DNA from: a virus
Taxonomy: Duplodnaviria; Heunggongvirae; Uroviricota; Caudoviricetes
IMG/VR virus record: IMGVR_UViG_2671180296_000010
Location: 1 to 33,926 of that record
Reading direction: 5' to 3' (one strand)
DNA: 33,926 bases
Numbering within the stretch: position 1 is the stretch's first letter; every line of letters starts with the position of its first letter. Below, piece after piece: positions 6,001-9,000 of this stretch. Position numbers: made by a program.

Positions 6001-9000
6001 ATCCCGGGAGGTAAACGGGCATTTCAGTTCAAGGCCGTTGCCGTCACTGCATAAACCATCGGGAGAGCAGGCGGTGCGCATACTTTCGTCGCGATAGATG
6101 ATCGGGGATTCAGTAACATTCACGCCGGAAGTGAATTCAAACAGGGTTCTGGCGTCGTTCTCGTACTGTTTTCCCCAGGCCAGCGCCTTAGCATTAACTT
6201 CCGGAGCCACACCGGTGCAAACCTCAGCCAGCAGGGTGTGGAAGTAGGACATTTTCATGTCAGGCCACTTCTTTCCTGAGCGGGGCTTTGCTATCACGTT
6301 GTGAACTTCTGAAGCGGTGATGACGCCGAGCCGTAATTTGTGCCATGCATCATCCCCCTGTTCGACAGCTCTCACGTCGATCCCGGTACGCTGCAGGATA
6401 ATGTCCGGTGTCATGCTGCCACCTTCTGCTCAGTGGCTTTCTGTTTCAGGAATCCAAGAGCTTTCACTGCTTCGGCCTGTGTCAGTTCTGACGATGCGCG
6501 AATGTCGCGGCGAAATATCTGGGAACAGAGCGGCAATAAGTCGTCATCCCATGTTTTATCCAGGGCGATTAGCAGAGTGTTAATCTCCTGCATGGTTTCA
6601 TCGTTAACCGGAGTGATGTCGCGTTCCGGCTGATGTTCTGCAGTGTATGCGGTATTTTCGACAATGCGCTCGGCTTCATCCTTGTCATAGATACCAGCAA
6701 ATCCGAAGGCCAGACGGGCACACTGAATCATGGCTTTATGACGTAACATCCGTTTGGGATGCGACTGCCACGGCCCCGTGATTTCTCTGCCTTCGCGGGT
6801 TTTGAATGGTTCGCGGCGGCATTCATCCATCCACTCGGTAACGCAGATCGGATGATTACGGTCCTTGCGGTAAATCCGGCATGTACAGGATTCATTGTCC
6901 TGCTCAAAGTCCATGCCATCAAACTGCTGGTTTTCATTGATGATGCGGGACCAGCCATCAACGCCCACCACCGGAACGATGCCGTTCTGCTTATCAGGGA
7001 AGGCGTAAATTTCTTTCGTCCACGGATTAAGGCCGTACTGGTTGGCGACGATCAACAATGCGATGAACTGCGCATCGCTGGCATCACCTTTAAATGCCGT
7101 CTGGCGAAGAGTGGTGATCAGTTCCTGTGGGTCGACAGAATCCATGCCGACACGTTCAGCCAGCTTCCCTGCCAGCGTTGCGAGTGCAGTACTCATTCGT
7201 TTTATACCTCTGAATCAATATCAACCTGGTGGTGAGCAATGGTTTCAACCATGTACCGGATGTGTTCTGCCATGCGCTCCTGAAACTCAACATCGTCATC
7301 AAACGCACGGGTAATGGCTTTTTTGCTGGCCCCGTGGCGTTGCAAATGATCGATGCATAGCGATTCAAACAGGTGCTGGGGCAGGCCTTTTTCCATGTCG
7401 TCTGCCAGTTCTGCCTCTTTCTCTTCACGGGCGATCTGCTGGTAGTGACGCGCCCAGCTCTGGGCCTCAATCCGATCCTGGATGTAATAAGCGTTCATGG
7501 CTGAACTCCTGAAATATGGCTGTGCGAATACCGCCCGCGTAATGCCAGGCTGATTGATCAAATGGGAAAGGGGATTAGTGATTCAGGCCGTTGCCGCGTC
7601 CGTCGAGAAAAACTTCCACGAGCAAATCACGGGTATAAGTGCGCTCGATGCCGCGATGCAGATAAAGCCGTCCGCGTAAATTAGCTGATGCAGTCCAGGT
7701 ACCATCTTTGTGTTTGACCAGCATTCCTGGCATGACCGCACCTCGATTAACGGTCTGCGTTCCGTAATGTTGATGAACCATAAAAACTCCTGCCCGTAAG
7801 CTGGGCTGCTGAACATATAGAGACTTCTGCGCGTATTCAGGCGGTGGATGGCCGCCGGTTGTCATAACTAAGCTGCCTCGTTGAAGCGACTGAGGTATGA
7901 GGTGTTGAGTTGAGTTGATTTCAGCTGGTCACACCGACGTTCACGCGTCCGCTTCACCCCTCGCACTTCCCGGAGCCTGCTGAAATTCAAGCTGCGGATC
8001 TAAGCGGTCATCGCAACGGTGAATCAGGTGGTTGCCGTATCGTTGTGTTGTTGCGATGAATTTATTTAAAACTATAGTTGTTTTGTCGTCAACAACAAAA
8101 GTTGTTTTATTGGGTTTTTTAGATGTAAATGGTTGTATTTAGGATGGATTTATTTTGTGACTTGCATCGCATAGCGATAACTGAAGCGAGGTTGTGGTGG
8201 TTTTTTGAACAGTATACGTGATGAGGGGAGGGGACAAAAGAAAACCCGGCACGGTGGCCGGGCTAGATCTTAAAGTATTTATCTTTTAGAGATGTAGATG
8301 CAAAATTTTTTGCCTTTGAAAATTTTTTGTCATCAGAAGAGCTTGTGAACTCATCTTTTTTGTAGGGAACCGCTAATGCTGCATCACGTCTGCGAGGCAG
8401 CTTGCTTACTTCCTCGCACTTTTTCATGATCAGTTATCCTTTAATAACCTATACAGTTTTGTAGGGGTACATCCTGAGGATATTGTTAAGTTCGTAGCAC
8501 GCCTTTTCCGCCCACCATCGTATAAACGAAAACCAGTAGTAGACGAATTTTCTGCGTCAAAAACTATAGACAGTATAACGTCCCCAGACTTTTTTTGCCA
8601 TTCATATGTGCCGTTAGTTGGTTTTGTCATCTGTAGACGCCAGTCAAGAACGCCATCACTTATAGCTGAGAGATCGTTTAGTACGTCTAGTACGGATTGA
8701 TATCTTTCATTTGGATCTACATGAATGCATTTGTTTACTATTGTTATCAATTTTTTATGTATGTGGGAAGGATACTCTTTTAATGGATAGGAGCCATCAA
8801 TTATCGACTCTCTGAGTTGTTCAATCGTTCTAAATGCAGATCTTTCTCTTTCAAAATTATCATATCCAACACACATTCTATATATGGTTAATCCTGCCTG
8901 ATATATGTCATATGTGAAATTATAATCATTTGTTGATAAAGAAAAATATTCCGGTGGCACATGAAAATGATATCCAAACTCAGGCGCAGCTCTCGATTCC

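What the first reader, a model, noticed from the sequence alone, without database searches (positions are those of the whole stretch)
7575..8110. No recognisable N antiterminator: the N position is occupied by a 96-aa ORF lacking an arginine-rich motif, and the boxA-like element after cro has no boxB
In lambda the first gene transcribed from pL is N, whose N-terminal arginine-rich motif binds boxB hairpins in nutL/nutR. Here the first ORF downstream of the predicted OL/pL region (7575-7865) has no Arg-rich N-terminus. Downstream of cro there is a good boxA match (CGCTCTTTAACAA at 11050-11062) but no adjacent GC-rich hairpin. The phage still has Q for late genes. Early antitermination may therefore use a different protein fold, an RNA-based mechanism (as with HK022 put sites), or be absent.
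Basis: partly seen in the sequence, partly recalled or inferred. Interest (0 to 1): 0.45.

Follow-up and report, generated by a model that had tools for sequence, protein, structure and literature searches.

The report
Lambda-like prophage without an N antiterminator
This lambda-like E. coli prophage really has no N antiterminator gene: the "96-aa ORF" is the cell-division inhibitor kil preceded by a 275-base untranslated leader found in about 40% of complete E. coli genomes, and how its early genes get past terminators is still open.

Summary
OL/pL lies at 8061-8110 and fires leftward from about 8057. No N gene, nutL or HK022-type put RNA follows it.

The "96-aa ORF" is not an N substitute. 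Residues 29-96 are a KilR-family FtsZ inhibitor (true start 7781, 68 aa). The 28 upstream codons lie in a covarying RNA hairpin element shared with phi80, HK639 and Enterobacter phages.

Between pL and kil is a 275-nt leader with no conserved coding capacity. It is no richer in Arg than about ten spurious ORFs elsewhere in the window, and it is not conserved as a protein.

The leader-kil-gam-bet-exo block occurs in 2210 of 5426 complete E. coli genomes, behind at least three different immunity regions.

After cro there is an exact rrn-type boxA (11049-11061) in an unstructured, C-rich, G-poor spacer with no boxB. It travels only with this cro module.

Most likely reading (about 0.4): early transcription is N-independent. 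No strong intrinsic terminator lies between pR and Q. The lone boxA may recruit host Nus factors against Rho. The pL leader may act as a Rho-sensitive gate before toxic kil.

Main rival (about 0.2): the leader is a new cis-acting antiterminator RNA, since two strong lambda-type terminators still precede xis and int.

The parts
8061..8110 (-). OL operators and pL promoter. -35 TTGACG at 8092-8087, 17-nt spacer, -10 TTAAAT at 8069-8064, transcript start near 8057.
   Evidence: Inverted copy of OR/pR (arms 8066-8084 with 10757-10775 at 95%, and 8082-8110 with 10732-10760). Hexamers read. In relatives with other operators, the distance from the -10 to the conserved TCGCAAC is the same.
7782..8057 (-). 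Leader of about 275 nt between pL and kil. It replaces the nutL-N-...-cIII segment of lambda.
   Evidence: No Pfam, PHROG or NCBIfam match to its ORFs. PGAP annotates no gene there in E. coli genomes. The 5' 167 nt of the leader (7890-8056) matched 2210 of 5426 complete E. coli genomes. The junction with three different operator types lies at the transcript start.
8008..8059 (-). 5'-terminal hairpin H1 (UCAUCGCAAC ... GUUGCGAUGA, 10 bp, 32-nt loop).
   Evidence: -13.1 kcal/mol, z = -3.3. Pairing is kept in 62-67 of 67 unique relatives, but with one-sided changes only. One immunity type replaces the 5' arm.
7969..7996 (-). Hairpin H2 (CCGCAGCUUG-AAUUUCAG-CAGGCUCCGG).
   Evidence: Predicted. All common polymorphisms keep pairing (C-G to U-G in 20 of 67), with no double changes.
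7868..7957 (-). Micro-ORF from GTG 7957 (MKRTRERRCDQLKSTQLNTSYLSRFNEAA, 29 aa; 40 aa if read from TTG 7990), with an ARM-like motif. It overlaps the small hairpin GACG-CGUGAA-CGUC (7948-7935).
   Evidence: Relatives show early stops (20 aa in the commonest variant), a frame fused to kil, loss of the start codon, and R-to-C and R-to-W changes. Equal or higher Arg density occurs in at least 10 spurious ORFs of the window. tblastn finds no N homolog.
7857..7947 (-). C-rich, G-poor tract (C/G up to 2.5) that includes (UCAAC)x3 at 7917-7903. A candidate Rho utilisation site.
   Evidence: Composition profile. The repeat number is 3 here and 2 in nearly all relatives.
7839..7898 (-). Conserved two-hairpin RNA element. 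Hairpin A spans 7898-7862 and its outer stem pairs with the AUG at 7865-7863. It is followed by ACAACC and hairpin B, GGCGG-CCAUCCA-CCGCC (7855-7839).
   Evidence: z = -2.5 to -4.4 in four phages. 97.8% of cells paired, 7 pairs changed on both sides, 0 of 500 shuffles as good, slid controls 29-50% paired. Shared with the phi80 region annotated 'tL1', an HK639 annotated 'terminator', HK225 and Enterobacter ENT1.
7575..7781 (-). kil, a 68-aa KilR-family FtsZ / cell-division inhibitor, with SD GGAG at 7790-7787.
   Evidence: phrog_294 E 1e-38 over residues 20-96, and NCBIfam PRK11354 over residues 29-96. 36% identity to Rac KilR from residue 1, E 9e-13. PGAP calls the 68-aa product in relatives. 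Phage D2 swaps in a lambda-type kil at the same ATG.
11049..11061 (+). Solitary boxA, CGCUCUUUAACAA. It matches the rrn consensus UGCUCUUUAACAA at 12 of 13 positions (consensus recalled from memory). It starts 13 nt after the cro stop.
   Evidence: Single exact match in the window. Present in 39 of 91 leader-bearing loci, always with this cro module. No boxA-like site in the left operon of any locus.
11037..11105 (+). Unstructured, C-rich, G-poor cro-cII spacer in the position of lambda tR1/nutR, with no boxB hairpin.
   Evidence: MFE -4.1 kcal/mol, z = +0.5. C/G ratio of 2 to 4.7 across 10976-11100.
5062..5076 (-). Intrinsic terminator inside the pL operon (GGAGCUACAGGCUCC followed by UUUUUUAUU).
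2716..2735 (-). Intrinsic terminator just upstream of xis. It is identical to the one in lambda and is annotated as a terminator in phages 434, P22 and L.
16809..17258 (+). Late antiterminator Q. The tR' terminator lies at 17304-17323.
   Evidence: PF06530 E 1e-52. Terminator.

Best explanation
Shown:
- The interval is the pL end of an N-less lambda-like prophage integrated next to ybhC, the lambda attachment region.
- pL (8061-8110) transcribes leftward from about 8057 through a 275-nt leader straight into kil (7781-7575), then gam, bet and exo.
- The whole nutL-N-...-cIII segment of lambda is missing.
- There is no N-family protein, no boxB and no HK022-type put RNA.

Inferred: early transcription needs no phage-encoded N-type factor.
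- Rightward, no strong intrinsic terminator lies between pR and Q, which resembles a lambda nin5 deletion. The one obvious obstacle is Rho acting on the unstructured C-rich cro-cII spacer. The consensus boxA embedded there most likely loads host NusB/NusE and the Nus/SuhB complex. That would give rrn- or CRISPR-style protection from Rho without N or boxB.
- Leftward, the long untranslated leader has a C-rich tract followed by conserved hairpins. It most likely serves as a Rho/NusG-sensitive gate that keeps toxic kil quiet in lysogens, as is known for Rac kilR.
- xis and int lie behind two intrinsic terminators and would be reached only by read-through.
For: Gene identities and the absence of N:
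- Identity of kil.
- No N family or ARM protein.
- put covariance model: negative in the window (best 13.7 bits, at 33478-33544, outside both early leaders). It scores 66-100 bits on put sites not used to build it, in Siccibacter prophages and Salmonella phage UPF_BP1.

Rightward operon:
- boxA is exact and correctly placed.
- The spacer is unstructured and C-rich, with C/G up to 4.7.
- BoxA alone with Nus factors blocks Rho outside rRNA operons (PMC7665894).
- pR to Q has only weak terminator candidates: hairpins at 12973 and 13626/13640 with T-poor tails, and -9.3 kcal/mol at 15296. The first strong one is tR' at 17322.

Leftward operon:
- The leader has a C>G tract at 7947-7857 and no conserved ORF.
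- Expression of Rac kilR is held down by NusG/Rho termination (PMC5793797).
- Divergence at four-fold degenerate sites of kil, gam, bet and exo is 4.2-9.5%. The 5' part of the leader diverges 4.4% per site, which is weak constraint. The 3' part diverges 2.1%.

Viability without N: relatives with the same architecture are deposited as complete phage genomes with named hosts (4A7, the PhiR phages, IdasGreatGrand). That suggests the N-less layout is viable, though I did not check how they were isolated.
Against: - Two good intrinsic terminators (5062-5076 and 2716-2735, the second identical to lambda's) still precede xis and int. Lambda needs N to pass the second one. Their retention is easier to explain if something modifies pL transcription complexes.
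- About half of the leader-bearing phages have other cro modules with a 30-nt cro-cII gap and no boxA. boxA therefore cannot be the general solution for this phage family and may be a fossil of a nutR.
- Rut sites cannot be predicted reliably from composition.
- No transcript data were available.
Confidence: 0.4

Rival explanations
1. The pL leader, especially the family-specific 5' part at about 8017-7925 with hairpins H2 and H3, is a new class of cis-acting antiterminator RNA. It would work like HK022/HK639 putL but be unrelated in sequence. The RNA would stay bound to the RNA polymerase that made it and carry it through the intrinsic terminators to xis and int.
For: - The leader starts at the first transcribed bases of pL, as putL does.
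- It sits exactly where N plus nutL, or put, sit in relatives.
- Lambda-type intrinsic terminators are kept downstream.
- HK639 is annotated with a put-like RNA only in its left operon, so one-sided antitermination has a precedent.
- Common polymorphisms in H1 and H2 keep base pairing.
- Other genera also place structured, covarying leaders between pL and kil with no N.
Against: - The put covariance model finds nothing.
- The 5' leader is not more stable than shuffled sequence (z = -0.4 to -0.6).
- There are no double compensatory changes within the family.
- It evolves at about 70% of the four-fold-site rate.
- There is no second copy in the right operon.
- Some relatives in other genera manage with a leader of about 75 nt (L146).
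Confidence: 0.2
2. The Arg-rich micro-ORF (GTG 7957, MKRTRERRCDQLK...) is a minimal or degenerate N-like peptide, or the remnant of a deleted N gene. The hairpin GACG-CGUGAA-CGUC would be its boxB-like target.
For: - The motif resembles the lambda and P22 N arginine-rich motifs (TRRRERR and TRRHERR, recalled from memory).
- A GGAG lies 7 nt upstream of the GTG in most relatives.
- One lineage has GTG changed to ATG together with a synonymous AAG-to-AAA change.
Against: - The length is 20, 29 or 128 aa depending on the strain.
- Start loss and R-to-C and R-to-W changes occur.
- The Arg density is matched by at least 10 spurious ORFs in the window.
- There is no homolog among phage N proteins.
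- There is no matching hairpin or boxA in the pL transcript and no hairpin in the pR transcript.
- 20-29 residues cannot hold the NusA- and RNAP-binding parts of N.
Confidence: 0.06
3. The boxA after cro is a non-functional fossil of a former nutR whose boxB was lost by module exchange. The phage simply tolerates partial termination in both operons.
For: - boxA travels only with this cro module (39 of 91 loci).
- Sibling phages without it share the same left arm and replication genes.
- A homologous cro in Salmonella phage UPF_BP1 is followed by putR. Whatever follows cro is therefore exchangeable.
Against: - The 13-mer is closer to the rrn consensus than lambda's own boxA, and it is intact in 38 of 39 loci that carry it. 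A decaying relic should drift.
- Consensus boxA is sufficient for Nus-complex loading elsewhere (PMC7665894).
Confidence: 0.25
4. A trans-acting antiterminator of an unrecognised fold is encoded elsewhere in the early region. It would use the conserved leader hairpins as its loading site.
For: - Several small early ORFs have no assigned function.
- Hairpin A/B is a conserved RNA element of unknown role.
Against: - Hairpin A/B also occurs in phages that have N or put, and there it lies after the tL1 terminator.
- No candidate ORF lies between either early promoter and the first terminators other than cro, the YdaT-type CII and kil.
Confidence: 0.08

Closest known systems
Phage lambda N / nut antitermination
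   Same: Same genome layout: OL/pL, kil-gam-bet-exo, xis-int, cI, cro, O, P and Q. There is a boxA a few bases after cro in a C-rich spacer, in the position of nutR/tR1. The intrinsic terminator before xis is identical to lambda's.
   Different: No N gene, no arginine-rich protein, no boxB in either operon and no boxA in the left operon. cIII, ral, ea10 and sieB are also absent, and pL reads straight into kil.
HK022 / HK639 put antiterminator RNA
   Same: A lambdoid phage without N, with a non-coding element beginning at the first transcribed bases of pL. In HK639 only the left operon is annotated with such an element.
   Different: No sequence or structure match to put (best 13.7 bits, outside both leaders, against 66-100 bits for true put sites). 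The predicted structure is no more stable than shuffled sequence. There is no Nun gene.
rrn-type (boxA-only) Nus-factor antitermination, as in rRNA operons, suhB and CRISPR arrays
   Same: A near-consensus boxA with no boxB and no phage factor, placed at the start of a long transcript that is exposed to Rho.
   Different: Here it lies in a phage early-right operon between two translated genes. It is present in only part of the phage family, and its function is untested.
Rho/NusG silencing of kilR in the Rac prophage, and the kilR 5'-UTR sRNA KilS
   Same: A KilR-family toxic gene sits behind a long untranslated leader in the leftward early operon of a lambdoid prophage.
   Different: No sequence similarity between the two leaders. 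In Rac, ydaG, ydaF and sieB lie between the repressor gene and kilR. KilS has its own intrinsic terminator, and the window leader has none.
Lambda nin5-type N-independence
   Same: No strong intrinsic terminator between the replication genes and Q.
   Different: This is the natural state of the phage, not a laboratory deletion. The left-arm terminators remain.

Membership tests
Lambda N-type antiterminator protein | A small basic protein (about 100 aa) encoded as the first gene after pL, with an N-terminal arginine-rich motif | tested here: not met
   The only conserved gene after pL is kil. The Arg-rich micro-ORF is 20-40 aa, not conserved and at chance level. There are no Pfam, PHROG or tblastn matches to N.
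Lambda N-type antiterminator protein | Cognate nut sites (boxA plus a boxB hairpin) in both the pL and pR transcripts | tested here: not met
   boxA occurs only after cro. The spacer there is unstructured. There is no boxA in the left operon.
HK022-type put RNA | Match to the put sequence and structure profile (two stem-loops with the conserved GAACGGC ... GUCGG ... GGAUGA ... CAAU core) | tested here: not met
   The covariance model built from HK022 putL, HK022 putR and HK639 putL gives no hit in either early leader. It recovers put in Siccibacter prophages and in Salmonella phage UPF_BP1 at 66-100 bits.
HK022-type put RNA | Acts in cis on RNA polymerase through the beta-prime zinc-binding domain | not testable with these tools
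   Needs in vitro transcription or rpoC mutants.
KilR / phage Kil FtsZ inhibitor (phrog_294, NCBIfam PRK11354) | Profile match over the full domain, and collinearity with Rac KilR from residue 1 | tested here: met
   phrog_294 E 1e-38. PRK11354 scores 61.9 bits, which is below its 92-bit equivalog cut-off, so this is family-level membership only. BLASTP against Rac KilR gives 36% identity, E 9e-13.
KilR / phage Kil FtsZ inhibitor (phrog_294, NCBIfam PRK11354) | Blocks cell division when expressed | not testable with these tools
   Requires expression in cells.
boxA / Nus-factor (rrn-type) antitermination site | Consensus boxA RNA (GCUCUUUAACAA core) downstream of a promoter | tested here: met
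   Exact CGCTCTTTAACAA at 11049-11061, the only exact match in the window.
boxA / Nus-factor (rrn-type) antitermination site | NusB/NusE/SuhB recruitment and Rho-resistant elongation that depend on the boxA | not testable with these tools
   Needs ChIP or reporter assays with boxA point mutants.
Rho-dependent terminator / attenuator | Untranslated, unstructured C-rich G-poor tract of about 80 nt or more (rut), followed by pause sites | tested here: inconclusive
   C/G reaches 2.5 over 7947-7857 and 4.7 over 10976-11100. Composition alone does not prove Rho loading.

The most novel reading that the evidence does not exclude
The 275-nt pL leader is carried by about 40% of complete E. coli genomes. 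It, and perhaps the unrelated structured leaders that precede kil in Citrobacter, Kluyvera, Leclercia and Atlantibacter prophages, could be a new class of cis-acting processive antiterminator RNA. Such an RNA would replace N and nutL and be unrelated to put in sequence.
Probability: 0.2. Interest if true: 0.8.

Novelty: new variant of a known kind. Interest (0 to 1): 0.42.

Why it matters
N-dependent antitermination is the textbook model of early gene control in lambdoid phages, and HK022 put is the one well-studied exception.

This window shows a third arrangement, with no N, no nut pair and no put. It is not rare: its left arm is present in 2210 of 5426 complete E. coli genomes and in several phages deposited as complete genomes.

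These phages keep lambda's own terminator in front of xis and int. They therefore either live with heavy termination or carry an unrecognised antitermination device in a 275-nt leader.

Either answer is directly testable with reporter fusions and Nus, Rho or rpoC mutants. It would show how much of the lambda paradigm applies to the prophages that actually populate E. coli.

The lone consensus boxA after cro also offers a natural test of host-only Nus antitermination in a phage operon.

Tried and rejected
1. HK022-type put. A covariance model gave no hit in the window. The model is sensitive, because it found put in loci not used to build it.
2. Rfam. At gathering thresholds the only match in the window is STnc100, far downstream. 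Relaxed scans of both early leaders gave only sub-threshold noise. The best was an ALIL pseudoknot at 25 bits against a 50-bit cut-off, on the wrong strand.
3. A second copy of the leader in the right operon, as a putR analogue. nhmmer found none.
4. An N remnant. tblastn of the leader reading frame found only the same phage family plus the shared hairpin region.
5. The Arg-rich motif as a signal. It was rejected after a window-wide scan found equal or richer stretches in many spurious ORFs.
6. The RfaH ops element. No match with one mismatch or fewer.
7. Special conservation of the leader. It was rejected because the leader is no better conserved than kil, gam, bet and exo, and its 5' part is close to the four-fold-site rate.
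8. Homology to the Rac kilR leader or the sRNA KilS. None found.
9. Prophage sRNA literature (svsR, Pas, HnrS, anti-sRNAs). These lie at other positions.
10. Papers on the related phages. A search for the names of relatives turned up only papers on other subjects, judging by titles and abstracts. King et al. 2011 on HK639 is not held in the library.
A closer pair of sequences worked.
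Full report
**What the window is**

The window is a lambda-like prophage. A lambda-type integrase lies at 1419-2489 next to a ybhC-like pectinesterase gene. The leftward genes are exo (5734-6414), bet (6411-7196) and gam (7202-7561, PF06064).

The immunity region follows. It holds an S24-peptidase cI repressor (10012-10767), a YdaS-type cro (10806-11036) and a YdaT-type CII (11106-11645), then O, P, NinB and RusA. Q is at 16809-17258 (PF06530), followed by a strong terminator at 17304-17323.

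Between cI and the left operator sit a 933W-like serine/threonine kinase (8430-9476) and a 153-aa protein (9470-9931). Both end at an intrinsic terminator at 8243-8264.

**Position of pL**

The stretch 8066-8110 is the inverted copy of OR/pR at 10732-10775. Read on the minus strand it gives TTGACG (8092-8087), a 17-nt spacer, TTAAAT (8069-8064) and a start near A8057.

**The 96-aa ORF**

The ORF exists (7575-7865, minus strand) and its N-terminus is not Arg-rich. It is nevertheless not a candidate N substitute.
- PHROG 294 (Kil, septation inhibitor) matches residues 20-96 at E 1e-38.
- The NCBIfam KilR model matches residues 29-96.
- Residues 29-96 align from residue 1 with the experimentally studied KilR of the Rac prophage (36% identity, E 9e-13).
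- A GGAG lies 5 nt upstream of the internal ATG at 7781.
- NCBI's pipeline calls exactly this 68-aa "cell division inhibitor" in E. coli genomes.
- In phage D2 the sequence upstream of this ATG is kept, while a lambda-type kil replaces the downstream gene.

The gene is therefore kil, at 7575-7781.

**What lies between pL and kil**

The interval is about 275 nt (8057-7782). None of its ORFs matches Pfam, PHROGs or NCBIfam, and no gene is annotated there in RefSeq E. coli genomes. The lambda segment nutL-N-...-cIII is simply absent.

It contains RGVKRTRERRCD, which recalls the arginine-rich motifs of lambda and P22 N (recalled from memory). I do not think it is an N, for five reasons.
- Across 57 unique versions of the leader the frame ends after 20 codons in the commonest variant. 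It runs on into kil in others, loses its start in some, and shows R-to-C and R-to-W changes.
- The window itself differs by an extra UCAAC unit that shifts the frame.
- tblastn finds no N homolog.
- At least ten spurious ORFs in the window have as many or more Arg residues in 12.
- No boxB-like partner exists in the pR transcript.

**Test for put**

I took HK022 putL and putR from the HK022 genome. putL was located with the published pL primer (PMC9378689). I added the annotated HK639 putL and built a covariance model.

With filters off, the model gives 74-97 bits on its own sequences. In the window nothing scores above 13.7 bits, and nothing at all falls in either early leader.

The model is sensitive. 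It found put sites that were not used to build it, in two Siccibacter prophages and as both putL and putR in Salmonella phage UPF_BP1, at 66-100 bits. Membership in the put family is therefore tested and not met.

Rfam holds nothing for either leader. There is no ops element.

**How common the arrangement is**

The 5' 167 nt of the leader (7890-8056) matched 2210 of 5426 complete E. coli genomes. The full leader is found in 16 phage records in GenBank, including 4A7, Lambda_4C10, the PhiR phages, IdasGreatGrand and Perceval.

It follows at least three unrelated operator/promoter sets, and the homology begins at the first transcribed bases. This looks like a module boundary, but it is not evidence of special constraint.
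- The leader is 97.3-97.5% identical to relatives, and kil, gam, bet and exo are 97.6-98.4% identical.
- The 5' half of the leader differs at 4.4% of sites, against 4.2-9.5% at four-fold degenerate sites of the neighbouring genes. The 3' half differs at 2.1%.

**Anatomy of the leader**

1. A 5'-terminal 10-bp hairpin at 8059-8050 with 8017-8008 (z = -3.3). Related pL leaders in phi80, HK225, HK639 and other genera also begin with a CAUCG... hairpin, so this is a general feature and not an N substitute.
2. A G-rich part with hairpin H2 (7996-7969) and a small hairpin (7948-7935). It is no more stable than shuffled sequence (z = -0.45). Polymorphisms keep pairing, but only through one-sided changes.
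3. A C-rich, G-poor tract (7947-7857, C/G up to 2.5) with UCAAC repeats.
4. A two-hairpin element at 7898-7839.

The two-hairpin element is the best-supported structure in the interval.
- Hairpin A shows 7 pairs changed on both sides across nine sequences from E. coli, Enterobacter, Citrobacter and Huaxiibacter phages, phi80 and HK639.
- 97.8% of cells are paired, 0 of 500 shuffles do as well, and slid controls give 29-50% paired.
- Its outer stem pairs with the AUG at 7865, the very codon that opens the "96-aa ORF".
- In phi80 the element lies at the start of the region annotated tL1. In HK639 it is annotated as a terminator. In those phages and in ENT1 it directly follows a canonical intrinsic terminator.
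- In the window no U-tract follows hairpin B.

Its function is unknown. Because it coexists with N or put in other phages, it is not the missing antiterminator.

**The right operon**

It is the only exact match in the window. The 69-nt spacer is unstructured (-4.1 kcal/mol, z = +0.5) and very C-rich and G-poor (C/G 2-4.7), like lambda's tR1/nutR region but without boxB.

Among 91 leader-bearing loci with enough right-hand sequence, 39 carry this same boxA, always with this cro module. The others have a 30-nt cro-cII gap and no boxA. A homologous cro in Salmonella phage UPF_BP1 is followed by an HK022-type putR. What follows cro is therefore an exchangeable cassette.

BoxA alone, with NusB/E, NusA, NusG and SuhB, is known to block Rho outside rRNA operons (PMC7665894).

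**Is antitermination needed?**

Rightward, my hairpin-plus-U-tract scan finds only weak candidates between pR and Q: 12973, 13626/13640 and 15296. The first strong terminator is tR'. This resembles a lambda nin5 deletion, which makes lambda N-independent (established knowledge).

Leftward, kil, gam, bet and exo are reached without a strong intrinsic terminator. Two good ones follow, at 5062-5076 and at 2716-2735. The second lies just before a lambda-identical xis, is 100% identical to lambda over that stretch, and is annotated as a terminator in phages 434, P22 and L. Lambda passes it only with N.

**Explanation**

Shown:
- There is no N, no nut pair and no put.
- The ORF is kil.
- boxA is real and solitary.
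- The leader is widespread.

Inferred, with a confidence of about 0.4:
- Early transcription does not use a phage N-type factor.
- The right operon needs none, apart from protection against Rho at the cro-cII spacer, which the boxA may supply through host Nus factors.
- The left leader acts as a Rho/NusG-sensitive gate in front of toxic kil. This is by analogy with Rac, where kilR is kept silent by NusG/Rho termination (PMC5793797) and its 5' UTR yields the sRNA KilS (PMC8175672). That leader is not homologous to this one.

The main rival (about 0.2) is that the leader is a new cis-acting antiterminator RNA.
- In its favour are its position at the start of pL, its replacement of N or put, the retained lambda terminators and the HK639 precedent.
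- Against it are the lack of structural stability, the absence of covariation and the weak constraint.

**Wider context**

A scan of one genome per species with Kil found 25 loci. In Citrobacter, Kluyvera, Leclercia, Silvania, Entomohabitans, Buttiauxella, Phytobacter and Atlantibacter, kil again lies directly behind a pL-like promoter. It is preceded by other structured leaders, some with clearly covarying stems. These loci have no N ORF, no put and no Rfam match in the leader.

The N-less "pL-leader-kil" layout is therefore general in Enterobacteriaceae. I found no paper that describes it. [quoted passage not shown]

**Verdict**

The absence of N is a real and common natural variant, not a misreading. 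The 96-aa ORF was mis-assigned, and the put idea fails in its specific form. The mechanism remains open and is experimentally easy to settle.

Noticed in passing
window 7839-7898 (minus strand); also L004 5095-5170, L010 1372-1445, L134 2495-2570, L152 about 3110-3200, L157 about 2250-2340: A conserved two-hairpin RNA element: covarying hairpin A, then AUGACAACC, then GGCGG-CCAUCCA-CCGCC. It is shared by this prophage family, phi80 (annotated tL1 region), HK639 (annotated terminator), HK225, Enterobacter phage ENT1 and prophages of Citrobacter and Huaxiibacter. Outside the E. coli family it directly follows an intrinsic terminator. Hairpin A sequesters the AUG of a short reading frame that begins MT(T/N)GGHPPP. 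Its function is unknown.
   Followed up: partly
window 7903-7917 (minus strand): The pentamer UCAAC is repeated three times here and twice in nearly all relatives. The extra unit shifts the frame of the Arg-rich micro-ORF and creates the stop just before the 96-aa ORF.
   Followed up: yes
window 8265-9931; L001 4862-6290; L013 910-1290; L014 549-2150; L138 689-2262: The slot between cI and OL carries a different cassette in each relative. Here it is a 933W-type Ser/Thr kinase plus a 153-aa protein that PHROGs calls RuvC-like. Elsewhere it is GevA/GevT, a SIR2-family protein, a HipA-family kinase with a DUF3037 protein, or a BamE-like lipoprotein. This looks like a hot-spot for lysogen-expressed defence genes.
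   Followed up: no
L140-L148, L153, L159-L162 (300 nt upstream of kil at 3501): In other Enterobacteriaceae genera kil also sits directly behind a pL-like promoter. The leaders there differ and are modular. One has a stem that covaries (CCGAC/GUCGG, CCCGA/UCGGG, CCCGG/CCGGG) around a conserved loop GCAUAYGAAKA. Another has a long stem, GCUUCGCGGUGGUG ... CACCACCAGCGAAG. All share CGUUCCGCCAGCCUGGCGACAAGGGCA just before kil. None has N, put or an Rfam match in the leader.
   Followed up: partly
L136 1502-1580 (minus strand) and 2783-2857 (plus strand); L149 1919-1999; L154 1339-1419: HK022-type put RNAs occur in the P22-like Salmonella phage UPF_BP1, as both putL and putR. The putR is nearly identical to that of HK022. 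They also occur in two Siccibacter colletis prophages. None is annotated.
   Followed up: partly
window 19070-19287 (plus strand): A full-length match to the Rfam sRNA family STnc100 (165 bits), downstream of Q, pR' and tR'.
   Followed up: no
window 8130-8262 (minus strand): The stretch between the terminator of the kinase operon and OL is conserved across phages with unrelated operators. It contains the palindrome ATCGC-TAT-GCGAT. The half-sites ATCGC and GCGAT recur in the two arms of the 5' hairpin of the leader.
   Followed up: no
L137 2607-4080: In E. coli strain Res13-Lact-PEA14-20 an IS3-family element is inserted in the leader after position 107, separating pL from kil.
   Followed up: no
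window 7830-7936 (plus strand): A sub-threshold Rfam match to the ALIL (IS3 frameshift) pseudoknot: 25 bits against a 50-bit cut-off, E 2e-4 for the 851-nt scan. It lies on the strand opposite the pL transcript and overlaps the hairpin A/B element. Probably chance.
   Followed up: no
window 1-2740: The prophage ends with lambda-identical xis and a lambda-type int next to a ybhC-like pectinesterase gene. This indicates integration at or near the lambda attachment site.
   Followed up: no
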